This document shows, piece after piece, positions 7,167 through 18,466 of a stretch of DNA of 32,000 nucleotides. The notes under the pieces were generated by a model. The model worked only from the letters and a program-made list of their open reading frames with translations. It made no database searches and was not told where the DNA came from. Source of the DNA: Candidatus Thorarchaeota archaeon (GTDB lineage Archaea > Asgardarchaeota > Heimdallarchaeia > Hodarchaeales > Hodarchaeaceae); the NCBI GenBank assembly GCA_048882505.1, contig JBHLRO010000030.1, forward strand, positions 3,540 through 35,539, in the 5' to 3' direction. Position numbers and translations under genes: made by a program. Position 1 is the stretch's first letter. Every line of letters starts with the position of its first letter.

Positions 7167-7901
7167 ATGGATACCGAGACACTACGTGAGAAGTTTATTC
7201 GATCCGAGGAAGCGCTCAACAAACTCGCAGATGACATCAAACAACTGGTTTTTAGTCGGAGTCAAGAACTACGAGATTCTCGCGATTATCTTGAAACCTT
7301 GATAAAAGAAAAAGAAGCCGTTGACTCGCAAATCACAGAGCAGGAAGCTAAAATTGCATCACTTCAAGAAGAGATCTCAAAACAAGGTGGTTTGAAAGAA
7401 AGTTTAGTTAATAGACGATCCCTGGGTTCAGAGGATACTCAAAATAAGAAGATTAGGCTAGAGGAACTTCGTCATGAAGTAGCCACATTAGGAGATTCTG
7501 TTAATTCCACCAATCGTGTGATCGAACAAATAAAGATGAACATAACTCAAAAACGCGAGCGTATTGGAGAGTTAATTCGGGCAAACCAGGAATTAGAAGA
7601 AAAACTTAGGGTCGAGATGGATGTAAAAGTGACTGAAGCCAAAAATCTAGAACAAACTGTAGCTAATATGGAATCAGAAAATGCAGTAATCTCATATCTT
7701 CTTGAAGAGTCTGCGGAGGATATTCCTGAAGTTGATATCCTAGCCTCAGTAATGCAACTAGGTGAGGCTAGTAGAGATCAATTGAAACAATCCCTCGAAG
7801 GAATTGTGTCTCCAGTTATGCTTACACGAACCCTCGGACGGATGGCTGAAAAAGGAATACTTAACTTCGATGAGTCTCGTGATATTATTAGATACGAGTG
7901 A
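7167..7901 (+). CDS. Long coiled-coil protein with C-terminal winged-helix-like domain (paralog B)
   Basis: Heptad helix, then PEVDILASVMQLGEASRDQLKQSL...MLTRTLGRMAEKGILNFDESRDII. GAGGTGA at 7153-7159 favours ATG 7167; ATG 7161 overlaps the upstream stop (ATGA). Confidence 0.7.
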   Translation: MDTETLREKFIRSEEALNKLADDIKQLVFSRSQELRDSRDYLETLIKEKEAVDSQITEQEAKIASLQEEISKQGGLKESLVNRRSLGSEDTQNKKIRLEELRHEVATLGDSVNSTNRVIEQIKMNITQKRERIGELIRANQELEEKLRVEMDVKVTEAKNLEQTVANMESENAVISYLLEESAEDIPEVDILASVMQLGEASRDQLKQSLEGIVSPVMLTRTLGRMAEKGILNFDESRDIIRYE

Positions 7902-8958
7902 GGCGGAAATTATCACGATATCCGAATTAAGTAATGAACCAGAAAATCTGCATGAAGATTGGGTTTTCCATCGAAATCTTACATCAGGAAAAACCCAGTG
8001 TTTAGCATGTGCCCGCCATTGTCACTTGATTTCAGGTGAAATTGGATGGTGTGGTGCACGGATGTGTCAGGAAGGGAAAGTTGTACCTAGAACGTATGGT
8101 TTGGTTTCTTCCGTTGCTGTTGACCCCATTGAGAAAAAACCCCTTTACCACTTTCTACCTGGAACGGGTATCCTTAGCATCGGTGCTACTGGGTGTAATA
8201 TGAGGTGCCTCCACTGTCAAAACCATTCTATATCCCAAAGCCGGGCCATCGCTCACCTCCAAAGAGTATCTCCTCGTGAACTCGTGAATCAGGCATTGGA
8301 AAGGAATCTACCTTCTATAGCGAGTACGTATAATGAACCGATGATTGCTTACGAATATGTTAGGGATATTGGAAGGATAGCCCATCAAGAAGGATTGAAG
8401 ATGGTGGTCGTAGATAATGGCTACATTAGCAAACGACTGGCAGAAAGACTCACACCTTATCTTGATGGGGCTAATATTGATGTTAAAGGTTTTTCCGACG
8501 AATTCTATGGGGAAATCTGTGACGTGAGGGCATGGAAGCTCGTTTTGAAGACCTGTGAAGTTTTTTTCCAACGGGGTGTGCATCTAGAGATAACTAACCT
8601 CATTATCCCAACGAAGAATGATAATATGGAGATGATTAGGGAGATGTGTGAATGGATGGTGACCAAACTCAGTCCAAATGTACCTCTCCACTTCTCAGCG
8701 TTTCACCCTGATTACAGATTGAGGAACCTACCTCACACTCCCATGAAAACATTAGAAGATGCCCTAGCGGTTGCCAAGGACGTAGGGCTTAATTATGTAT
8801 ATCTTGGGAATGTTAGGGGTCGTAAGGGTAACGATACTTACTGTCATAACTGTCATAGCCATTTAATCTCTCGTGCTGGCTATTATACGAAGCTACTTGG
8901 AATTACGGAGGGTAGATGCACTAAATGCAACACAGAAATTCCAGGGGTCTTTCTCTAA
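7870..8958 (+). CDS. AmmeMemoRadiSam-system radical SAM enzyme (PFL-activase-like)
   Basis: N-terminal CxxCxxxC...WCGAR, VDPIEKKPLYHF, radical SAM CNMRCLHCQN, TYNEP, ANIDVKGF, PLHFSAFHPDY, C-terminal CxxC...CxxC. The start is uncertain: 7804 and 7870 both overlap the upstream gene. Confidence 0.9.
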   Translation: MSLVILLDTSEAEIITISELSNEPENLHEDWVFHRNLTSGKTQCLACARHCHLISGEIGWCGARMCQEGKVVPRTYGLVSSVAVDPIEKKPLYHFLPGTGILSIGATGCNMRCLHCQNHSISQSRAIAHLQRVSPRELVNQALERNLPSIASTYNEPMIAYEYVRDIGRIAHQEGLKMVVVDNGYISKRLAERLTPYLDGANIDVKGFSDEFYGEICDVRAWKLVLKTCEVFFQRGVHLEITNLIIPTKNDNMEMIREMCEWMVTKLSPNVPLHFSAFHPDYRLRNLPHTPMKTLEDALAVAKDVGLNYVYLGNVRGRKGNDTYCHNCHSHLISRAGYYTKLLGITEGRCTKCNTEIPGVFL

Positions 8959-8970
8959 TTCAGATCAGCC

Positions 8971-9396
8971 TTAAATAATTCTAATAGGGAGTTCTATTAC
9001 CTTTCCCTTGCGAAGGGCGAATGCTTTGAGTTTTGGATCGGATCCGTCCCCTCCGATCAACCACGTATAAGGATACGGCCAATATTCCATGAAATGTATG
9101 TCCTGGAGAGAAGGGGCGAGACGAGCATTCTTAGGATGACTGTGAAATATCCCTACTAACTCTCTTCCCTCTTTCTCGTATTTCATAATGTGGTGGTAGA
9201 AGATTTCATAATCGATACTGAAGTGGGTCGATGATTCATCCAGATTGAGCATTGGTTCGAAATCTGTTACATTAACATGATCCTGGGGCTCCCATTCTCC
9301 AAAAGCGAGTCCTACAACTTCAATAGGTTGATCTTCTTTTAACAATGATATAATTTCTCGGTAACAAGAATTAGAAATAGATATAGAAGGTGACAC
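8971..9396 (-). CDS. JAB1/MPN+ (JAMM) metalloprotease
   Basis: E(VVG) plus the JAMM motif HSHPKNARLAPSLQD (HxH-x7-S-xx-D). GTG start with RBS GGAGGTGG. Confidence 0.92.
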   Translation of the reverse strand: MSPSISISNSCYREIISLLKEDQPIEVVGLAFGEWEPQDHVNVTDFEPMLNLDESSTHFSIDYEIFYHHIMKYEKEGRELVGIFHSHPKNARLAPSLQDIHFMEYWPYPYTWLIGGDGSDPKLKAFALRKGKVIELPIRII

Positions 9397-9448: not shown

Positions 9449-10849
9449 TTATGGATATTCAGGATGAACACTATACGGGGGAATAATCTTATCAGGAGAG
9501 TTCAGGGCTTCAATATACCGCTGCTGGGCCGCTGGTTCACCGTGGATCGGCAAAATCTTGGTTGGGTTTGTATATTTTACGACCTCGAGGAGGCCTCCTT
9601 GGGAGGCATGGCCTGAGAATTGGAATCGTTTTACCTCCAATTCAAGGTTAACATTATAGAGGCCTCCAAAACCGTTGTTCAATAAAATTTGTCGCTGCCC
9701 TGCGATTATATCTGATCCTACAGTCCCTTCGACTTGATAGCCCACGATATAAAGGCCGTTTTTTGGGTCACTCCCTAGATCGAACTTTCCCAGATATTCG
9801 TAAATTGGACCGCCCTCGATCATACCCGATGTCGTCAATATGATGATAGGTTTTTCCTGATTTGCCAATAATGCTCGTTTTCTATTTCTTCCTCCAGTTG
9901 GAAGGATCTCATCAATTTTGTGGATACCCTCATGGTCGAATGGTGATTTGTATCCATTCGCTTTTAGAAAGCTAAGCAATCGTTTGGATACCCACTTTTC
10001 GGTTAAATACCGTCTATATATCTTGTTTATATCAAGGATCATGCCATCTATCCAGAGTTGATATGAATCTAGAAACGTGTCAAACTCCTGGATCAAGTAG
10101 GTTTGAATTTCTTGTGAACGGCCCAGTGCAAATGAGGGTATTATCGCTTTTCCACCTCGGGAATAACACTGTAGTAATTTTTGTGTTAACTTTGAGGTTG
10201 TTTCCTTCCGCGATGGTAAAGGCCGAGTGGCATTGGTAGTCTCCGTAATCAATATATCGATGGGTTCCTCCAAAGAATCATTCATGAAATTCGGATCATG
10301 AAAGGGTGTTTTGGCGTCATTTATATCCCCGGTATAAAAAATCCTGGTTCCATCCCAATCAAGCAGAATGCACGCACTACCTAAGATGTGACTAGCATCA
10401 TAAAATTCAGCAGAAATACCGTCCAAAAGTCGAAAAGATCGGTTATAATTGTGAGGAACAGAATTTCGCAGGGCGTGATCGAGATGACGAAGACTAAAAT
10501 GAGTTTCTCCCTCGATTTTCAAGTGGTCTTTCCATAAAATTTTCACGATATCTTTTGTAGGTGCCGTTAGATGGATATCATTAGCATATCCCCAGCGATA
10601 GAGGGCTGGAACATATGCTGAATGGTCTATATGAGCGTGGGAAACCAACACGGCATCTATATCAGGGCTTAGATCATCGAGCTGCGCGGGGGGAGTCGAT
10701 CGTTGGTCTGTTCTTCTTGGATGAAGTTGAATACCTGCATCCAAGATGATCCGTCTATCTCTGTCTGAAATCATAATACATGATTTGCCAACGGATTCTG
10801 CGGCCCCAAGCACTGTGACTGTAAGCATTTCGATCAAGCCATAAGGCAT
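9449..10849 (-). CDS. Metallo-beta-lactamase/beta-CASP ribonuclease (aCPSF-like, no KH domains)
   Basis: LGAAESVGKSC, SHAHIDH, SHILGS, YTGD, IPSFALGRSQE, TTSGMIEGGP, GYQVEGT, FSGHAS, HGE. The true start may be ATG 10828 (MLTVTVLG). Confidence 0.93.
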   Translation of the reverse strand: MPYGLIEMLTVTVLGAAESVGKSCIMISDRDRRIILDAGIQLHPRRTDQRSTPPAQLDDLSPDIDAVLVSHAHIDHSAYVPALYRWGYANDIHLTAPTKDIVKILWKDHLKIEGETHFSLRHLDHALRNSVPHNYNRSFRLLDGISAEFYDASHILGSACILLDWDGTRIFYTGDINDAKTPFHDPNFMNDSLEEPIDILITETTNATRPLPSRKETTSKLTQKLLQCYSRGGKAIIPSFALGRSQEIQTYLIQEFDTFLDSYQLWIDGMILDINKIYRRYLTEKWVSKRLLSFLKANGYKSPFDHEGIHKIDEILPTGGRNRKRALLANQEKPIIILTTSGMIEGGPIYEYLGKFDLGSDPKNGLYIVGYQVEGTVGSDIIAGQRQILLNNGFGGLYNVNLELEVKRFQFSGHASQGGLLEVVKYTNPTKILPIHGEPAAQQRYIEALNSPDKIIPPYSVHPEYP

Positions 10850-11025
10850 GTGATAGAGGAACGGTGGTTAATCAGGGTAAAAACTGGAGATCCACTGTTT
10901 TCTCTGCTGAAGCAACGAGAGAATACCCACAATAAGAATTTTCGGTTCTATATTTCGAACCAATGGTTCGTCTAAGGAAAAATCTATATAACCAAAGAGT
11001 CCTCCCCCCCCTTAGGTGCACTCTG

Positions 11026-11733
11026 ATGCCAGTCGACCCACAACAAATACCGCTTTCAGGGATTCCCATTGGCATTTTTCTGATGTTTTTGGGTTCACTC
11101 CTGGGATTAATTCCTTTATATGACCTTGGATTTATAATATTCCTCGGTTCACTAGCAATAGTGTTTATTCAATGGATTAGTAGCGGGGGTATTGCAGAAA
11201 TGTTAAATTGGCTTCCATTGGTTTTGATACTGGCAATTGTCTTAACACTTTCGTCTGATTTCGTGAGTCAATCCCCTGAAACTCAAGTTTTTACATGGCC
11301 TTTGATACTCTTCGTTTTAGTGCTGATCCTTGGTTTCATGTTCGCTCAAGGAGGGGATCTAAGTTTTATTATGCCTTTTTTACCGTTTTTATTAGGAATC
11401 GGCATAATTGGAGTGGTAGGCGGGGAATTATTGTGGCAAGACGCGTTTCGGGGTTTGGCTTATAGTATTGGCTTTCTAGGGATTGTGGTTGTGCTTATTT
11501 GGCTGCGAGTCCGTAAAACCCAACGTATGGCACCTATAGTAGGGGATAAGGAACATATGATTGGAAAAACAGGACTAACTCTAAGTTTGATCTCCCCTGA
11601 CGTTGAAGGACGCGTGAGGGTTGGGGGGGCGACTTGGAAGGCACAGTCTGAGGTTAAAATCTATGAGAATGAGCCGATTCAAGTCGTGGGCATTGAAGGC
11701 TTGGTTCTCAAAGTCAAACCAAAATCAAGATGA
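11026..11733 (+). CDS. NfeD-family membrane protein (about 6-7 hydrophobic segments plus C-terminal OB-fold)
   Basis: C-terminus MIGKTGLTLSLISPDVEGRVRVGGATWKAQSE...VVGIEGLVLKVKP is the NfeD OB-fold. AGGTG RBS precedes ATG 11026; the ORF track starts at 10963. Confidence 0.85.
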   Translation: MPVDPQQIPLSGIPIGIFLMFLGSLLGLIPLYDLGFIIFLGSLAIVFIQWISSGGIAEMLNWLPLVLILAIVLTLSSDFVSQSPETQVFTWPLILFVLVLILGFMFAQGGDLSFIMPFLPFLLGIGIIGVVGGELLWQDAFRGLAYSIGFLGIVVVLIWLRVRKTQRMAPIVGDKEHMIGKTGLTLSLISPDVEGRVRVGGATWKAQSEVKIYENEPIQVVGIEGLVLKVKPKSR

Positions 11734-11950: not shown

Positions 11951-14188
11951 TCATGTGGAAGATTCAAACGCATCCAAAATATACGAGTATATGGTTTTTT
12001 CTTCTCCGGACGATTTGGCAAACAATCGTCGCACAATTAATTCTGGTGTACTAGCTGCATATTGATAATACACTGGGGTACGATCCACCAAAAGTTCTAA
12101 ATCCTCCGAAAGTCCTTGCGCTTCAATGCCATCAATTCTTAGAGCCTCTTTGCTGTATTTTGCAATTTCTTGAGCGAGATGAGTAACGAAAATCCCCACA
12201 GAATGCGATGATCGTCCCAATAAATCAAGAAACGCGGCGATCACACGAGCGGATGCCCCCGGTTCAGAGATACTCTCCATTTCGTCTGCTAAAACCAAAC
12301 GAGAATGAGGGCTCATGATCATCTGCGAGAGAGTTTGCAGCGTAGTTTCGAAAGCACCTGCATCCATCTGGCCTGCCGCCTTTCTATAGTAATGGAGTTC
12401 CTTGAATCCTCCTAGCACTGCTTTTTTACACGGAATTGGGAGTCCCATCTGACCAAGAATTACCATTACGGCAAGTGAAACGATCAGGGTTGTCTTACCT
12501 CCGCTATTGGCACCAGAGAGCAGAACAATGCGTTCTCCGCTTACTACTCCATCGATCGTTCCAACTTCACCTACTGCATAAGATACTGGCTGAACCTTTG
12601 CTCCACCGCGTAGCTCCTGCTGGGCGAGAAATAGATTACGACCATTTTCAATTAATAATCCAGTTTTCGAGGATTCCCCGAGTTGAGGTAGGATTAATTG
12701 ATATGTTGAAGCGAACTTACCCAGCATAAATAGGTAATCAAGTTCCAACATGTAGTTTAATGCTTGTTTAGCGATGTTTTCATATTGTTTCAGCGCTTTG
12801 GCCAGTCTAGTCTTTAACTCAAAGGATTTGATGGCACGTCGTTGTCGAAGATATGTTGTTAAACGGGAAACAATATCCTCAACAGGATCTACGGGATATC
12901 GAAGTTCTCGTGGAAATATCCCTACAAGGTATTCAATCTCCTCGTCCTGGAGATCAAGGGCTTTGATAAGACTTTCTTCCGCCTTATTTATGATCTCTTC
13001 AACTGCCATGAAGAGTTCATCATCCAAGTATTCTCGAAGATCCGTCCGACCACTGTCGGGAGCGTATTGGGAATCTTCAGATGAAATACCCTTAATGAGG
13101 GCGAGGATTTTTTCTCCTCCGAGTTCAACTGTGGACTGTTGGAGCTTTTTCTCAAGAGCCTCATTAAGTCCGATGAGAATCTCATCGAGCTTGGTTTCAA
13201 ATAGCGTCTCTGCTCGTAATAAACGGGAGTATTCCACATTTAGGTCTGAGGTTGGTTCCCCAGATTCTTCCAAATTCCCCAGTTCTTTTCCCATTTCTCT
13301 TAGCATCTCTAGATCGAGATCCTCAATATAGGCACTTAACGCGGAGGACGGTAGAGTTTGAAGGAGATGGGTGAGACCGGCAATTGATTCAAGCGTTCTT
13401 TTGTTTCTGGCGAAAAAACTTAGGGTTTTTTCCGGAACAATCTGAACCAGATCATTCCGAGCCGATTCGCCGACCGTCACAACATTAGGAAGACTGTCAT
13501 CTAGCAGGACATCAGAACCAATCCAGATAATCTCATCATATCCTTTTGTATAATCGCCTATTCGTTCGATATCATCGATAAGAGTAACCTCACAATGATA
13601 ACCTACATCGGATGTGGTAAGATCTTTAAACAAATCCCTGTCAGGAGTGACAATCAATCTTGATGCAGTGTCAAGGCGCGCCTTTTGCTCTTTAAGAGGA
13701 GTTAGATTGCGCAAGAGAGTGTCATATTCCTTGTAGGAATGAGGGGATGCATGAATTAGTGATGCCAATTGCATTCCCAGATGAGCCACATTTTGACGTT
13801 CCCTGATTTTATCGAGTGCAGAAATAGGGAGAGGGAAGTAGAGATACAATTTTGAGCGAGCATACAGGGTATTTGCAAATTTAGCAATGATATCAATCGT
13901 CTGATTGTAGATACGGATTGCATCCTCGGTTTTCAAGAAATTCCGAACATCTTCTCCTGTTTCTTGAAAATGCAGATTGCGGCACAAGCTTAAAGCGAAT
14001 TTTTCCCCGATTCCTTCAATAGCTGAGATTTCAGCTATCCGAGATTCACGTAATGCTAGTAGAACGGCAGCTTCACTTCCAAATGCGGCTACGAGCCTAT
14101 CTGCCACGGAGGGCCCAATCCCACGAATATCTCGAAGGTTTGTTATACTCAAAGTCTGTTCCTTTCGCTTGGCTATCTTTTTAAACAA
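11951..14188 (-). CDS. MutS5-like protein: N-terminal helix-hairpin-helix pair plus C-terminal MutS ATPase domain V
   Basis: HhH motifs IRGIGPSVA and IEGIGEKFA; Walker A SGANSGGKTT; DAGAFETTL; LADEME; FVTHL. No mismatch-recognition domain I. The start may be TTG 14152. Confidence 0.88.
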   Translation of the reverse strand: MFKKIAKRKEQTLSITNLRDIRGIGPSVADRLVAAFGSEAAVLLALRESRIAEISAIEGIGEKFALSLCRNLHFQETGEDVRNFLKTEDAIRIYNQTIDIIAKFANTLYARSKLYLYFPLPISALDKIRERQNVAHLGMQLASLIHASPHSYKEYDTLLRNLTPLKEQKARLDTASRLIVTPDRDLFKDLTTSDVGYHCEVTLIDDIERIGDYTKGYDEIIWIGSDVLLDDSLPNVVTVGESARNDLVQIVPEKTLSFFARNKRTLESIAGLTHLLQTLPSSALSAYIEDLDLEMLREMGKELGNLEESGEPTSDLNVEYSRLLRAETLFETKLDEILIGLNEALEKKLQQSTVELGGEKILALIKGISSEDSQYAPDSGRTDLREYLDDELFMAVEEIINKAEESLIKALDLQDEEIEYLVGIFPRELRYPVDPVEDIVSRLTTYLRQRRAIKSFELKTRLAKALKQYENIAKQALNYMLELDYLFMLGKFASTYQLILPQLGESSKTGLLIENGRNLFLAQQELRGGAKVQPVSYAVGEVGTIDGVVSGERIVLLSGANSGGKTTLIVSLAVMVILGQMGLPIPCKKAVLGGFKELHYYRKAAGQMDAGAFETTLQTLSQMIMSPHSRLVLADEMESISEPGASARVIAAFLDLLGRSSHSVGIFVTHLAQEIAKYSKEALRIDGIEAQGLSEDLELLVDRTPVYYQYAASTPELIVRRLFAKSSGEEKTIYSYILDAFESST

Positions 14189-14342
14189 GAATCCCAGGAT
14201 TCTTTTTTGCTTTTTTCTCCTTTAACTCCCACATAGCGCTAGTAAATTCAAAATTAAAAACAATTTTCTGCTATATTTTCTCAACTCGACAGGAAATCTT
14301 CGATTCGGAATATTAACAGTCAAAGTCAAAAGCAATCGATAA

Positions 14343-15305
14343 TTAAATACCAAGTTTGGTTATTCGTTTTGGATTTACCTCACGAATAAAAGTATGTAGC
14401 TCAGAAAACGAACAATGGTCACTATATGGGAAAAAATGGACATCAAGGCGTTTGTGGGCCAATTTTATTGCCCAACCCGTCGGTGATATTCGTAGTGCGT
14501 CCGAAATTTTGGGATGTAAGGAATTATCAATTCCCTGGAGATTTTCAACCATTCTTCTACTCCCAACAAAGACTTGAACATCATCGTTGTCTGTGAAAAT
14601 ATCCCATTCCCCGCCAATCTCCTTAAAAATCTCAATTTTTTGAGGTGGGGCCCAGATTTTTTTTCCAATTGCTTTGCTGATTGTTTGAAATAAAATCTCC
14701 TTGCCTATCTGGTATGCGGACAACCAGACATTTCTTTCAGGGTAATTTCCTGGGGCATGAATTAAGGTAAGGATATCCGAAATAAGCTCCTTGCGAGAAG
14801 GAAAATCATATTTTGGATCTCTTCCATACACGTAGTCCACGTATAAATGATCAGGATTTCTTAATAATTCCATTTCCTCAATGATGACTGAACCAAGACG
14901 AAAATCGCCCGTATATACTTCTTTAGTTCCATCATTATCTTCTATAACAAACATTAAGCTGCCCAGACAATGATTGGCGTCCAGACAGTGAACCTTAAAA
15001 TCGTCAAAATCCAAAGATTGGCTAGGTTTGACGATTAAGCACTTTTCCCGGGGAATTCGATGTAAAGCTTTGATAACCGCCGCTGTTTCTCGTGTACATA
15101 CGACCGTAGAATCTTGAGCGGTAATAATATTCTTTAATCCTCTAGTATGGTCAGAATGGGCATGTGATAGGAAAAAATACCCGGATGAAGGTCTTCTGCG
15201 ATCGTTTCTACCAAAAGGAAATTCATCGAAATAACTTCTGGCGATCGAAGAATACACGTCGATTTCCTCTTGATATCTAGTGGGAAAAACCTCTTGAATG
15301 AACAA
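14343..15305 (-). CDS. SNM1/Apollo/Pso2 (DCLRE1)-like MBL beta-CASP DNA nuclease
   Basis: FFLSHAHSDHTRGL, LDANHCLGSLMF, YTGDFR, LYVD, FPSRKE, YQIGKE, PTGW and PYSDHCSFSELHTFI occur in the same order as in eukaryotic SNM1A/SNM1B. Confidence 0.8.
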   Translation of the reverse strand: MFIQEVFPTRYQEEIDVYSSIARSYFDEFPFGRNDRRRPSSGYFFLSHAHSDHTRGLKNIITAQDSTVVCTRETAAVIKALHRIPREKCLIVKPSQSLDFDDFKVHCLDANHCLGSLMFVIEDNDGTKEVYTGDFRLGSVIIEEMELLRNPDHLYVDYVYGRDPKYDFPSRKELISDILTLIHAPGNYPERNVWLSAYQIGKEILFQTISKAIGKKIWAPPQKIEIFKEIGGEWDIFTDNDDVQVFVGSRRMVENLQGIDNSLHPKISDALRISPTGWAIKLAHKRLDVHFFPYSDHCSFSELHTFIREVNPKRITKLGI

Positions 15306-15537: not shown

Positions 15538-15686
15538 GTTAAGCCGAGTTTCGTTCTGATCTGTACTGTTATGCGCGAGCTTACGGGAACATCAGAAAAC
15601 GGGTATTGCCCGTTCATAGGGCTCGAGTAACACCCGGTCTCATTCCGAAAGATATGAAGGAATTTCTTCATTCCGGGAACCCGGAA
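15538..15686 (+). rRNA. rrf: 5S rRNA gene, circularly permuted and intron-containing
   Basis: 15538-15603 is the 5S 3' half (GTTAAG CCGAGTT TCG TTCTGAT CTGTAC...GC-GCGA-GC...GGGAAC ATCAGAA AACGGG). 15604-15608 is the linker TATTG. 15609-15649 is the 5' half (CCCGTT CATAG GGCTCGAG TAACA CCCGG TCTCATTCCGAA). 15650-15679 is an intron and 15680-15686 is CCCGGAA. Helices I (CCCGTT/AACGGG), II, III and V (TTCTGAT/ATCAGAA), loop E and the GCGA tetraloop are all recoverable. Confidence 0.93.
15650..15679 (+). other. 30-nt archaeal BHB/BHL-type intron in 5S rRNA loop C
   Basis: Central helix UCCG(15644-47)/CGGG(15674-77), bulges AA|A (15648-50) and AA|C (15678-80), intron hairpin GA-U-AUGAAGG-AAUU-UCUUCAU-UC. 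Removal restores CAUUCCGAACCCGG. Confidence 0.85.
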
Positions 15687-15877
15687 ACAGGATCCTCATG
15701 TCCATTTACTTGGATATTAGGGATGTGGAGAGTATGTTGTTTTTAGAATAGACATCGAAGGTTTTCCCCAAGGACCAATGTCCATATTCGTGATTTTTAA
15801 TGTATATGAATCGATTCTTATCAAAGGAATGAAAAAGCAGATTCAAAATCATTTCAGTTTTGGTTGGGACTGTTATA

Positions 15878-16684
15878 ATGGACTGGAAAACATGGGAAAT
15901 TGAATACCAGTACATCGTTGAAGAGCTAGGGCTGGATCGCAAATCTGACTCCTATAGTGCCCAGCAACTTGAGGAAATCCTACTAAAGCATGCATCGAAT
16001 CGTAAAAAAACGATTTTGGATAAATTAATTGCAATACTTCAATATCCAATAATTATAGCTGGCGCAGGGCCTTCCTTGGAGAGAGATTTTGAACTGTTGA
16101 TGATTACAAAAGGATTACGCAGAGCTTGGGTTATTTCCGCGGATGGGGCCACATCCTTATTGAAGAAGAAGTCCTTAGTCCCTCAGGTTGTGCTAACAGA
16201 TCTTGACGGAGACCCTACTGCGATTGAATGGGCAATGAAGAATGGTTCAATCATTTTAATACACGCTCATGGGGACAACATCCATCTCGTAAAATCATTT
16301 TGTGAGGTTTATGGGCCCAAATTTTCTACCTATCTTGTGTGGGGTACAACACAAACATATCCGGAACATTTATGGAATTTTGGAGGTTTTACAGACGGGG
16401 ATAGGGCTATCTGTTTAGCCCTACATTTTCAATCTCCATTAATAGCTTTAATAGGATTTGATTTTGGGAAAAAAATTGGAAAATACAGTATTCATAATTC
16501 CCCTCTCCAAAAATCTCCTGTCCGTAAAATTAGGAAGTTTGAAATCGCGCTCCGTATTATTTCATCCTCGTATCCTGATCATAAGGGATTTAGATATAAT
16601 CTCACTGAAAAGGGGCAAGAAATCCCAGGTTTTACACGAATTATTGCTAACAGATTTTGGCAAGAGTGGGATCGTCTCGTCTGA
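15878..16684 (+). CDS. mptE: 6-hydroxymethyl-7,8-dihydropterin pyrophosphokinase MptE (DUF115)
   Basis: MDWKTWEIEYQYIVEELG, GAGPSL, ADGA, TDLDG, HAHGDN, NFGGFTDGDRA, GFDF. ATG 15878 is preferred over TTG 15860. Confidence 0.93.
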   Translation: MDWKTWEIEYQYIVEELGLDRKSDSYSAQQLEEILLKHASNRKKTILDKLIAILQYPIIIAGAGPSLERDFELLMITKGLRRAWVISADGATSLLKKKSLVPQVVLTDLDGDPTAIEWAMKNGSIILIHAHGDNIHLVKSFCEVYGPKFSTYLVWGTTQTYPEHLWNFGGFTDGDRAICLALHFQSPLIALIGFDFGKKIGKYSIHNSPLQKSPVRKIRKFEIALRIISSSYPDHKGFRYNLTEKGQEIPGFTRIIANRFWQEWDRLV

Positions 16685-17177
16685 AGGTGTAGCTTGCCAT
16701 ATAGTATTGCGTTTCCCAGATTGTGACTGTTATCGAATAGATCTGTTCCCATGAAGGATGGTTCTGCAAGGTCTCGGCGAGCTTTTCGCTTAAAAGCCGA
16801 GCCAGCGTTTCCGTGGTAACATTTACACAAGGGAGGAGTTTGACCTCTGCTCTTGGGATTGAATAAACTCGATCTGTATAGCTAATTTGGAGATTGAGAT
16901 CCAGTTCTGAAGTCAGAATCTCAATTCTTGGATTATGCGAAGGAAATAGCGTGTAATGATCCCAATCTGATAGTAATTGCTTTATAAGTTCCTCAAGAAA
17001 GATAAAATCTATCAGAATACCTTCGTCTGTTACGTTGCCCGTGATCTCAACTTCTACCCGATAGTTGTGCCCATGTAGCCCTTCAACATATTCGTCCAGT
17101 ACCAGAGCATGACTGGCGCAGAAATGACTTGCATTCCTATTTATTGTCACCGAAAAAGAATGATCACGAGAATTCAA
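16647..17177 (-). CDS. 6-pyruvoyl-tetrahydropterin synthase family, PTPS-III type (Glu in place of catalytic Cys)
   Basis: HFCASH, VEGLHGHNY (E-x2-HGH, no C-x3-HGH), NVTTETLA, IWETQ; T-fold size. Confidence 0.85.
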   Translation of the reverse strand: MNSRDHSFSVTINRNASHFCASHALVLDEYVEGLHGHNYRVEVEITGNVTDEGILIDFIFLEELIKQLLSDWDHYTLFPSHNPRIEILTSELDLNLQISYTDRVYSIPRAEVKLLPCVNVTTETLARLLSEKLAETLQNHPSWEQIYSITVTIWETQYYMASYTFRRDDPTLAKIC

Positions 17178-17218
17178 TTTGAAGCCACGGAATATATCTT
17201 CTATAGTCAGCAGTACTA

Positions 17219-18166
17219 CTAATTGGTCTCTTCACCGTACCAATCGCCGCCCTTCATATCCAGAAAGGCAGAAATCGCTGCAGTAGTACCTTCACCAACA
17301 GCCACAGAAATCTGTCCTTGTCCAGGAGTGATATCTCCACAAGCATAAACACGAGGGACACTCGTTCGCTGTTTATTGTCTACCTTTATGAGTCCATCTT
17401 GAGTTAACTCAACACCAATTTTCTTGGCTAATCCATTTGACGGGATAATCCCAATTGCCACGAAGACCGCTTTAACACGAATAGAGGACTCTTCGCCAGA
17501 TTTGACATTTTTTAGAGCGATGCTTTTCACTCCCCCCATATCTGAACCTTTGATTTGTGTTACCACGGAATCCCAGACCATATTTACCCTGCTATTGTTA
17601 AGAATCTGGTCTTGCAGTTTATCCTCAGCCCGTAATTGATCACGTCGGTGGATTAAGTAGACCTCTCTCACAACATTATCAAGATAAAGCGCTTCTGTAA
17701 CTGCTGAATTTCCGCCCCCAACAACAGCAACCTTTTTTTGTCTGTAAAGGGCCCCATCACAGGTTGCACAGTAGGAAACTCCTTTACCATCAAACTCCTG
17801 TTCACCTGGAACATCGAGATGTCTGTGATAGGTTCCCATAGCTAATATAACCACTTTGCATGTGAAAGTGCCCGAAGTCGTCACTACTTCGTGAGTTTTA
17901 TCCTGAGATATAACATCAGTAACTTCCACGAGTTCCTGGATTTCCGCCCCGAATTTTTCGGCTTGCTTCCGAAGGCGTTCTCCGAATTCCAACCCAGTAA
18001 CATATTCAAATCCAGGATAATTTTCAATAAAAGGAGTTTTCGCTGCGAGTCCTCCCACTGCCTCCTTTTCTAAGACTAGAACCTTCCATCCCATTCGGGA
18101 TCCATAAATCGCAGCTGCCATCCCTGCAGGTCCTGCACCAACGATAATCATATCGTAATCTGTCAT
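17219..18166 (-). CDS. trxB: Thioredoxin-disulfide reductase
   Basis: GAGPAG, GVSYCATCDG, GGGNSA, HRRDQLRA, VYACGD. ATG 18166 is preferred over TTG 18178. Confidence 0.97.
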   Translation of the reverse strand: MTDYDMIIVGAGPAGMAAAIYGSRMGWKVLVLEKEAVGGLAAKTPFIENYPGFEYVTGLEFGERLRKQAEKFGAEIQELVEVTDVISQDKTHEVVTTSGTFTCKVVILAMGTYHRHLDVPGEQEFDGKGVSYCATCDGALYRQKKVAVVGGGNSAVTEALYLDNVVREVYLIHRRDQLRAEDKLQDQILNNSRVNMVWDSVVTQIKGSDMGGVKSIALKNVKSGEESSIRVKAVFVAIGIIPSNGLAKKIGVELTQDGLIKVDNKQRTSVPRVYACGDITPGQGQISVAVGEGTTAAISAFLDMKGGDWYGEETN

Positions 18167-18466
18167 AGATTCAACCAAGCGGAATACGGCTCTATTAGAA
18201 CGCTTTCTACGATGAAAAGGGCTTAATAACTCTTAATTACTCTTCATTTAATCCGTTATTATATATATCATCGCATGATTTAATTAAGCATTTCTTATGT
18301 ATAGAGCAAGAACTAGTGACCGAGTTGAACTAGAGGAATTTGCCAGAGTAGTTCACCTAAAGGTTTTACGATCTGCCTAGGTGAAAAATCGTCATCAAAA
18401 TCAAAAGGCTTTTTCTTTTGGGATCAGATCTAAGTAAAGATACCTCTATGGTATGGTTGTTTAATA

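What the first reader, a model, noticed from the sequence alone, without database searches (positions are those of the whole stretch)
14343..15305. Eukaryote-type SNM1/Apollo interstrand-crosslink nuclease in an Asgard-like genome
Seen in sequence: FFLSHAHSDHTRGL, LDANHCLGS, YTGDFR, FPSRKE, IGKE, PTGW and PYSDHCSFSEL. Established, from memory: human SNM1B/Apollo has FFLSHMHSDHTVGL, LDANHCPGS, YTGDFR, LPSRQE, LGKE and PYSDHSSYSEL, and SNM1A has PTGW. This pattern differs from the aCPSF-type beta-CASP at 9449-10849 in the same window. Inference: a possible prokaryotic sister of the DCLRE1 family, relevant to the origin of Artemis/Apollo/Pso2.
Basis: partly seen in the sequence, partly recalled or inferred. 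Interest (0 to 1): 0.6.

Follow-up and report, generated by a model that had tools for sequence, protein, structure and literature searches.

The report
Stand-alone SNM1/Apollo-type nuclease in Hodarchaeales
This Asgard (Hodarchaeales) archaeon has a compact, apparently active version of the SNM1/Apollo DNA-repair nuclease otherwise described from eukaryotes, next to a MutS-like ATPase; a few bacteria carry the same enzyme, so the data do not show that eukaryotes inherited theirs from Asgard archaea.

Summary
Observation confirmed.

It belongs to the SNM1/Pso2/DCLRE1 (Pfam DRMBL) branch of MBL/beta-CASP nucleases:
- Sequence matches: human Apollo E 4e-29, SNM1A 2e-22, Artemis 3e-17, CPSF73 only 5e-3.
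- The AlphaFold model (pLDDT 93.6) matches Apollo and SNM1A best (TM about 0.8).
- All metal-binding and catalytic residues are conserved.
- The 5'-phosphate pocket that marks the exonucleases is nearly intact.

It is not a ligase-associated exonuclease (42.7 bits against a cut-off of 325) and not an RNA-type beta-CASP.

The "Asgard sister of DCLRE1" reading is only partly supported.
- The same roughly 290-aa protein occurs sporadically in Planctomycetota, Spirochaetota, KSB1, Riflebacteria and Eisenbacteria.
- In a mixture-model tree the Asgard and eukaryotic copies are each monophyletic. Eukaryotes sit beside a bacterial subclade (100/91).
- AU tests reject neither Asgard+eukaryotes (p 0.20) nor all prokaryotes together (p 0.38).

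New here: the gene is near-universal in Hodarchaeales (22 of 23 other genomes, plus the window's own). In 22 of 24 genomes it lies directly upstream of an HhH-MutS-family ATPase.

The likely function is a 5'-phosphate-dependent 5'-3' DNA exonuclease. Other first readers of this scan also noted the gene pair on this same stretch.

The parts
14343..15257 (-). SNM1/DRMBL-type MBL/beta-CASP nuclease, 304 aa (P0001). The maximal ORF runs on to 15305 (320 aa, TTG).
   Evidence: GTG start with GAGG upstream; orthologs are 303 aa.
15147..15164 (-). MBL motif 2, HAHSDH (H32, H34, D36, H37): metal ligands. Equivalent to Apollo H31, H33, D35, H36.
   Evidence: residue roles from PMC8450094.
14970..14984 (-). 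MBL motif 3, LDANH (H96; Apollo H99).
   Evidence: (invariant column).
14901..14915 (-). MBL motif 4, YTGDF (D118; Apollo D120).
14835..14846 (-). beta-CASP motif A, LYVD (D141; Apollo D145).
14700..14714 (-). YQIGK: Y182 and K186 of the 5'-phosphate pocket (same numbers in Apollo).
14472..14483 (-). PTGW: T260 of the phosphate pocket (Apollo T257). G and W as in SNM1A-type and bacterial members.
14415..14423 (-). SDH: S279 and D280 (phosphate pocket) and H281 (beta-CASP motif B, general acid; Apollo S274, D275, H276).
11951..14188 (-). Downstream same-strand partner: MutS-family ATPase (core, clamp and domain V) with an N-terminal helix-hairpin-helix. It has no mismatch-binding domain and no Smr domain.
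   Evidence: Pfam MutS_V plus HHH_5. PDB sequence hits to MutS2 and Msh3 at 3e-8. Fold matches to MutS, MutSbeta and MutS2. Adjacent to the nuclease in 22 of 24 Hodarchaeales genomes (coordinates).
14189..14342 (-). 154-nt AT-rich spacer between the nuclease and the MutS-like gene. By the match coordinates, relatives have a gap of about 20-95 nt.
   Evidence: coordinates. Co-transcription was not tested.

Best explanation
The gene encodes a minimal, stand-alone catalytic core of the SNM1/Pso2/DCLRE1 nuclease family: an MBL domain with an inserted beta-CASP domain and no regulatory tails.

It most likely binds two metal ions through HxHxDH, H96 and D118. D141 and H281 would act as the acid/base pair. 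A 5'-phosphate would be held in a pocket formed by Y182, K186, T260, S279 and D280. On this reading it degrades DNA 5'-to-3', one nucleotide at a time, from a phosphorylated end, as human Apollo and SNM1A do.

In Hodarchaeales the gene has been kept since the ancestor of the order. It sits directly upstream of an HhH-MutS-family ATPase. That partner plausibly acts as the DNA-structure or lesion sensor, or as a sliding clamp, that brings the nuclease to its substrate (blocked ends, cross-links or stalled forks).

In evolutionary terms it belongs to a prokaryotic set of SNM1 proteins shared by a few Asgard lineages and scattered bacteria. Whether eukaryotes took SNM1 from the Asgard side, from bacteria, or gave it to prokaryotes is not resolved by these data.

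Shown: family membership, intact active site, fold, distribution and gene order. Inferred: exonuclease polarity, DNA substrate and cooperation with the MutS-like protein.
For: Family:
- Apollo 3.6e-29, SNM1A 1.7e-22 and Artemis 3e-17, against CPSF73 at 5e-3.
- DRMBL above its Pfam cut-off.
- AlphaFold pLDDT 93.6. Foldseek top hits are Apollo and SNM1A at E 1e-23 and TM about 0.8, then Artemis at 1e-20, then RNA-type beta-CASPs at 1e-13 to 1e-15.
- The SNM1 clade has 100/100 support against ligase-associated-exonuclease-like proteins.

Active site and phosphate pocket:
- Alignments and invariant columns.
- Residue roles are taken from PMC8450094. That paper states that the pocket is conserved in SNM1A and SNM1B but not in Artemis, and that it confers the 5'-phosphate requirement.

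Conservation:
- 20 of 21 genomes of the same genus at 58-97% identity, and 2 of 2 in the sister family at 36-38%.
- The Hodarchaeales copies form a clade with 100/98 support.

Gene pair:
- Adjacent and on the same strand in 22 of 24 Hodarchaeales genomes.
- This holds although the nuclease has diverged to 36% identity and the ATPase to 40%.

Bacterial members sit on long bacterial contigs. They are rare in Planctomycetota: 10 of 301 sampled genomes.
Against: - No biochemistry exists for any prokaryotic member.
- One pocket residue differs from Apollo (S258 becomes G261), although SNM1A-type proteins share that state.
- beta-CASP motif C (Val in eukaryotic SNM1) falls at the very C-terminus and is neither Val nor His.
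- The MutS-like family is widespread in Asgard genomes that lack the nuclease (172 of 400).
- It is not adjacent to the nuclease in three other Asgard genomes that have both genes.
- Bacterial copies have no MutS-like neighbour and no conserved neighbour at all. The pairing is therefore lineage-specific and could be a gene-order accident that became fixed.
- The 154-nt spacer may hold a separate promoter.
Confidence: 0.7

Rival explanations
1. Direct ancestry. The Hodarchaeales/Asgard gene is the vertical sister of all eukaryotic SNM1 paralogs, so it is a true eukaryotic signature protein inherited at eukaryogenesis. The bacterial copies would be secondary transfers.
For: The gene is near-universal and apparently vertically inherited in Hodarchaeales, but rare and patchy in bacteria (10 of 301 Planctomycetota). 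An Asgard+eukaryote clade is not rejected (p-AU 0.20).
Against: The ML tree places a bacterial subclade next to eukaryotes with 100/91 support. Forcing Asgard+eukaryotes costs 15.6 lnL units. The FastTree run nests Asgard inside a prokaryotic clade. Within Asgard only 4 of 33 families have the gene.
Confidence: 0.25
2. Bacterial origin. SNM1 arose in, or was spread by, bacteria, and passed separately into an ancestor of Hodarchaeales (and a few other Asgard lineages) and into the eukaryotic stem.
For: In the careful tree both the Asgard clade and the eukaryote clade are nested among bacterial sequences. Eukaryotes are sister to the Riflebacteria/Spirochaetota/Phycisphaerae copies (100/91). A Planctomycetia copy branches first.
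Against: The backbone is a polytomy. Prokaryote monophyly is not rejected (p 0.38). The rooting rests on a distant outgroup. Bacterial carriers are sporadic, which fits recipients as well as it fits donors.
Confidence: 0.35
3. Artemis-like function: a structure-specific endonuclease (hairpin or overhang opening) rather than an exonuclease.
For: Same fold and catalytic centre; Artemis matches at 3e-17 and Foldseek 1e-20.
Against: The phosphate-pocket residues that separate the exonucleases from Artemis are present. Artemis is the most distant of the three human paralogs by sequence and by structure. Sequence alignment to Artemis covers only residues 30-230.
Confidence: 0.12
4. It is an archaeal version of the ligase-associated DNA-damage-response exonuclease, or an RNA-processing beta-CASP.
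For: TIGR04122 is the best NCBIfam hit. There is a weak RMMBL match (E 0.0086).
Against: 42.7 bits against a 325-bit cut-off. A 100/100 branch separates it from TIGR04122-like proteins. No ligase gene lies next to it. CPSF73 scores E 5e-3. Motif C is not His. A separate RNA-type beta-CASP lies at 9449-10849.
Confidence: 0.03

Closest known systems
Human SNM1B/Apollo (DCLRE1B; PDB 7a1f, 5aho, 7b2x)
   Same: Best sequence match (E 3.6e-29) and best fold match (E 1e-23, TM 0.76-0.81). Motifs 2-4, A and B are identical. The 5'-phosphate pocket residues Y, K, T, S and D are conserved. The catalytic core is about the same length (about 300 aa).
   Different: No C-terminal tail (Apollo carries a TRF2-binding region). 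It has PTGW where Apollo has PTSR. Motif C is not Val. It is encoded next to a MutS-like ATPase. About 26% identity in the structural alignment.
Human SNM1A (DCLRE1A) and yeast Pso2
   Same: E 1.7e-22; Foldseek E 3e-23, TM 0.81. It shares the PTGW state with SNM1A-type eukaryotic proteins. The predicted activity is the same: a 5'-phosphate-dependent 5'-3' exonuclease.
   Different: SNM1A-type proteins carry the domain at the C-terminus of 600-1000-aa proteins and have an insertion after PTGW. The archaeal protein is the bare core.
Stand-alone bacterial DRMBL proteins (Planctomycetota, Spirochaetota, KSB1, Riflebacteria, Eisenbacteria MAGs)
   Same: Same size (280-300 aa), same motifs including PTGW, 28-37% identity. 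Same SNM1 clade. 30 of 31 short prokaryotic members hit DRMBL.
   Different: Sporadic occurrence (10 of 301 Planctomycetota), no conserved neighbours and no MutS-like partner. I found no paper describing them.
Ligase-associated DNA damage response exonuclease (NCBIfam TIGR04122)
   Same: Nearest non-SNM1 beta-CASP family; similar size; a DNA-repair context is assumed.
   Different: Separate clade (100/100). Score far below the cut-off. Motif C is His and there is an RMMBL-type C-terminus. No ligase neighbour here.
MutS2, MutS and Msh3 (for the partner gene)
   Same: Domain V ATPase with Walker motifs, and a core/clamp-like helical region.
   Different: An HhH N-terminus replaces the mismatch-binding domain. 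There is no Smr nuclease domain. Sequence similarity is only about 1e-8.

Membership tests
SNM1/Pso2/DCLRE1 (Pfam DRMBL, PF07522) nucleases | MBL motifs 1-4 (D; HxHxDH; H; D) that bind two metal ions | tested here: met
   D11, H32/H34/D36/H37, H96 and D118 align with the Apollo residues. They are invariant or nearly invariant in A1.
SNM1/Pso2/DCLRE1 (Pfam DRMBL, PF07522) nucleases | beta-CASP insertion with motif A (Asp) and motif B (His) | tested here: met
   D141 and H281 are invariant. The model shows the two-domain MBL/beta-CASP fold of Apollo and SNM1A.
SNM1/Pso2/DCLRE1 (Pfam DRMBL, PF07522) nucleases | Motif C is Val (DNA type) rather than His (RNA type). This definition is recalled from Callebaut et al. 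2002 and was not re-read here. | tested here: inconclusive
   It is not His. The aligned position lies 1-2 residues from the C-terminus (G or L) in Hodarchaeales and is N or variable in bacteria. It is Val in the eukaryotic rows.
SNM1/Pso2/DCLRE1 (Pfam DRMBL, PF07522) nucleases | Score above the curated Pfam DRMBL threshold | tested here: met
   31.8 bits against 22, the same result for P0001.
SNM1/Pso2/DCLRE1 (Pfam DRMBL, PF07522) nucleases | Groups with eukaryotic SNM1A and Apollo to the exclusion of other beta-CASP families | tested here: met
   100/100 branch in the IQ-TREE LG+C20 PMSF tree. Ranking by sequence and by fold agrees. Artemis and RNA-type sequences were not in the tree.
SNM1A/SNM1B exonuclease subtype | 5'-phosphate binding pocket (Apollo Y182, K186, T257, S258, S274, D275) | tested here: met
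   Y182, K186, T260, S279 and D280 are conserved. S258 becomes G261, as in SNM1A-type PTGW. This is a sequence-level result only.
SNM1A/SNM1B exonuclease subtype | 5'-phosphate-dependent 5'-3' exonuclease activity on DNA, able to digest past an interstrand cross-link | not testable with these tools
   Needs purified protein.
Ligase-associated DNA damage response exonuclease (TIGR04122) | Score above the equivalog cut-off, and linkage to an ATP-dependent ligase or Lhr-type operon | tested here: not met
   42.7 bits against 325. The neighbours are the MutS-like ATPase, a 5S rRNA gene reported by another agent of this scan and an MptE-like kinase. Separate clade.
RNA-processing beta-CASP (aCPSF, CPSF73, RNase J) | RMMBL C-terminal domain with motif C His, and the Beta-Casp Pfam domain | tested here: not met
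   RMMBL scores 16.5 bits against 21.6, and there is no Beta-Casp hit. CPSF73 scores E 5e-3. The window's real member of this family is at 9449-10849.

The most novel reading that the evidence does not exclude
The Hodarchaeales SNM1-like gene descends from the same Asgard gene that gave rise to eukaryotic SNM1A, Apollo and Artemis. On this reading the conserved nuclease plus HhH-MutS-ATPase pair is an archaeal cross-link or blocked-end repair module that predates, and seeded, the eukaryotic Pso2/SNM1 pathway. The bacterial copies would be later transfers out of Asgard archaea.
Probability: 0.2. Interest if true: 0.75.

Novelty: new member of a known kind. Interest (0 to 1): 0.5.

Why it matters
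SNM1/Pso2/Artemis nucleases are usually treated as eukaryotic inventions. One comparative study dates DCLRE1B to "early eukaryotes" (PMC3969565).

This work shows three things:
- Complete, apparently active SNM1 cores exist in prokaryotes.
- They are a stable part of the genome in Hodarchaeales, which from memory (Eme et al. 2023, not re-read here) are the proposed closest archaeal relatives of eukaryotes.
- There they are wired to a MutS-family ATPase.

That gives a small, tail-less and tractable model enzyme for SNM1 mechanism. It also gives a concrete, testable case for how a eukaryotic repair nuclease family originated. The caveat matters as much: bacterial homologs exist, and the phylogeny does not single out Asgard archaea as the source.

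Tried and rejected
1. Ligase-associated exonuclease identity: rejected.

2. RNA-type beta-CASP: rejected.

3. Strict co-occurrence of the MutS-like ATPase with the nuclease. It looked perfect within the class (23 of 23 against 0 of 60). It failed at phylum level, where 172 of 400 genomes have the ATPase and most of them lack the nuclease. Only the adjacency is specific to Hodarchaeales.

4. Conserved neighbours of the bacterial or Wukongarchaeum copies: none found.

5. Resolving the sister group of eukaryotic SNM1. FastTree and IQ-TREE disagree on the backbone, and two AU tests are non-significant.

6. Adding Artemis and named eukaryotic sequences through a "longer" homolog search gave only six hits; the four with names were from plants. 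Artemis is therefore missing from the tree.

8. Literature searches for Asgard or prokaryotic SNM1/DRMBL found nothing specific. The one review that mentions both terms (PMC10340364) treats MBL-fold proteins generically.

9. The genome-contig scan used a single peptide pattern, so the bacterial distribution is a lower bound.

Full report
**Observation.** Gene callers and about 60 orthologs give 303-304 aa. A GTG at 15257, preceded by GAGG, is the likely start, so the CDS is 14343-15257.

**What it is.**
- Pfam gives Lactamase_B_2 plus DRMBL, the latter at 31.8 bits against a cut-off of 22.
- Against all PDB sequences the best matches are human Apollo (3.6e-29, residues 36-316), SNM1A (1.7e-22) and Artemis (3e-17). 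CPSF73 reaches only 5e-3.
- The best NCBIfam model, the ligase-associated exonuclease TIGR04122, scores 42.7 bits against a cut-off of 325.
- An AlphaFold2 model built on a 31-sequence alignment is confident (pLDDT 93.6, pTM 0.90).
- Foldseek ranks Apollo and SNM1A first (E about 1e-23, TM 0.76-0.82), then Artemis (about 1e-20), then a clear step down to RNase J, CPSF73 and Integrator (1e-13 to 1e-15).

**Active site.** In P0001 numbering:
- H32, H34, D36 and H37 form motif 2.
- H96 is motif 3 and D118 is motif 4.
- D141 is beta-CASP motif A and H281 is motif B.

All align with the catalytic residues of Apollo and are invariant or nearly so among the prokaryotic homologs.

The 2021 Apollo-nucleotide structure paper defines a 5'-phosphate pocket made of Y182, K186, T257, S258, S274 and D275. 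It states that the pocket is conserved in SNM1A and SNM1B but not in Artemis, and that it underlies the strict 5'-phosphate requirement of the exonucleases (PMC8450094). The archaeal protein has Y182, K186, T260, S279 and D280. Only S258 is replaced, by Gly, within a PTGW string that SNM1A-type eukaryotic and bacterial members share.

The motif C position is not His. It lies at the extreme C-terminus, and the protein has no tails. I therefore predict a 5'-phosphate-dependent 5'-3' DNA exonuclease. This is an inference from sequence and model, not a demonstration.

**Distribution.**
- Close homologs (52-100% identity) that carry source names are labelled Hodarchaeales, Hodarchaeota, Heimdallarchaeota or Promethearchaeota.
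- Among 400 genomes of the phylum, strong matches occur in 20 of 21 genomes of the same genus (58-97% identity) and 2 of 2 genomes of the sister family (36-38%).
- Three genomes of two other families also match (31-36%).
- All other matches are weak (1e-11 to 1e-22) and fall on a different beta-CASP of about 340 aa. That protein groups with TIGR04122-like sequences.
- The exhaustive representative search found 2,918 relatives. After the Hodarchaeales representative, the best scores belong to stand-alone proteins of 280-307 aa (120-196 bits). These are interleaved with eukaryotic Apollo-type and SNM1A-type proteins at about 90-120 bits.
- A scan of species-representative genomes places such short proteins in Planctomycetota (many), Spirochaetota, KSB1, Riflebacteria and Eisenbacteria, on contigs up to 1 Mb, and in Wukongarchaeum.
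- 30 of 31 of these short proteins hit DRMBL.
- In Planctomycetota they are rare: 10 of 301 sampled genomes, two of which were the seeds.

**Phylogeny.**
- The first tree used 123 rows with FastTree. The main tree used 68 rows with IQ-TREE under LG+C20+F+G4 PMSF, with ultrafast bootstrap and SH-aLRT support. Both were rooted on TIGR04122-like proteins.
- The SNM1 clade as a whole has 100/100 support.
- Eukaryotes (Apollo-type plus SNM1A-type) are monophyletic (100/99).
- All Asgard copies are monophyletic (100/91). Inside them, the clade holding the Hodarchaeales-family copies has 100/98 support.
- Eukaryotes are sister to a bacterial group (Riflebacteria, Spirochaetota, Phycisphaerae) with 100/91 support.
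- The rest of the backbone is a polytomy.
- FastTree instead recovered one prokaryotic clade (96).
- AU tests reject neither an Asgard+eukaryote clade (delta lnL 15.6, p 0.20) nor a single prokaryotic clade (delta lnL 5.9, p 0.38).

Limits: Artemis and RNA-type beta-CASPs were not in the tree, the eukaryotic rows come from the top 150 hits only, and many short rows are unlabelled metagenomic proteins.

**Surroundings.** Directly downstream on the same strand (11951-14188) lies a 745-aa protein.
- It has an N-terminal helix-hairpin-helix and MutS domain V.
- It shows weak sequence similarity to MutS2 and Msh3 (3e-8).
- A model of moderate confidence aligns over 470-800 columns with MutS, MutSbeta and MutS2.
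- It lacks the mismatch-binding and Smr domains.

By coordinates, the nuclease and this ATPase are adjacent and co-oriented in 22 of 24 Hodarchaeales genomes. The same arrangement is seen in loci L002-L005. The order is kept although the nuclease has diverged to 36-38% identity and the ATPase to 40-42% between the two families.

Within the class the ATPase is found only in these two families (23 of 23 against 0 of 60). Across the phylum it is common (172 of 400, 30-38% identity). In the three other Asgard genomes that have both genes, they lie on different contigs. Bacterial copies have no such neighbour and no conserved neighbour at all.

I read the pair as a functional module specific to Hodarchaeales (confidence about 0.45). 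Yeast genetics links Pso2 and MutS factors in cross-link repair, but as parallel pathways (PMC3415447, abstract seen). That parallel is suggestive only.

**Literature.** Searches combining SNM1, Pso2, DCLRE1, DRMBL or Artemis with Asgard, Hodarchaeales, archaea or Planctomycetes found no description of these proteins. A general review of MBL-fold proteins mentions Asgard and SNM1 separately. A comparative study of the DNA-damage-response network dates DCLRE1B to early eukaryotes. JGI's automatic annotation already calls one Asgard member "DNA cross-link repair 1A protein", so databases recognise the family.

**Verdict.** This is a real and well-conserved prokaryotic member of a known nuclease family. 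It has a new, lineage-specific genomic partnership and an unresolved but testable bearing on the origin of eukaryotic SNM1. Other first readers of this scan noted the same gene pair on this stretch, and I checked the adjacency independently.

Noticed in passing
window 9449-10849 (-): RNA-type beta-CASP (Pfam Beta-Casp plus RMMBL plus Lactamase_B_2, 466 aa), syntenic in Hodarchaeales loci L002 and L003 at 58% identity. It is a second, unrelated MBL nuclease 3.5 kb from the SNM1-like gene.
   Followed up: partly
window 11951-14188 (-) and phylum-wide: The HhH-MutS-domain-V ATPase family is present in 172 of 400 Asgard genomes (30-38% identity). It was not found in the five non-Hodarchaeales families of the same class (0 of 60) or in family f20 (0 of 135). 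This is an oddly disjunct distribution.
   Followed up: partly
G069, G072, G076, G064, G079, G297, G299 and others: Several orthologs of the MutS-like gene contain a single in-frame stop (TGA, TAA or TAG) within otherwise full-length matches. Two SNM1-like orthologs (G071 and G062) show one TAA each. These could be sequencing errors, pseudogenes or recoding; I did not examine them.
   Followed up: no
G300, G301 and G303 (family f27): In three small Asgard genomes the TIGR04122-like beta-CASP lies a constant distance of about 10 kb downstream of the HhH-MutS-like gene on the same strand.
   Followed up: no
P0079 (Acropora digitifera, 1141 aa): A coral protein with two tandem SNM1 domains. It has two stretches in the representative search, two profile domains spanning residues 5-627 and two DRMBL stretches. 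It is the highest-scoring eukaryotic hit to the archaeal query.
   Followed up: no
P0303-P0305 and P0307: Plant SNM1 proteins carry SAM domains (PF00536, PF07647) fused to the DRMBL core.
   Followed up: no
window 7804-9396, 10963-11733 and 15860-18178: Neighbouring genes: radical SAM, Prok-JAB, NfeD-like, MptE-like kinase, PTPS and a pyridine-nucleotide disulfide oxidoreductase. Most are syntenic with L002; none is an obvious repair gene.
   Followed up: partly
window 15538-15686: According to earlier notes of this scan, a permuted, intron-bearing 5S rRNA gene lies about 280 nt upstream of the nuclease start. I did not examine it.
   Followed up: no
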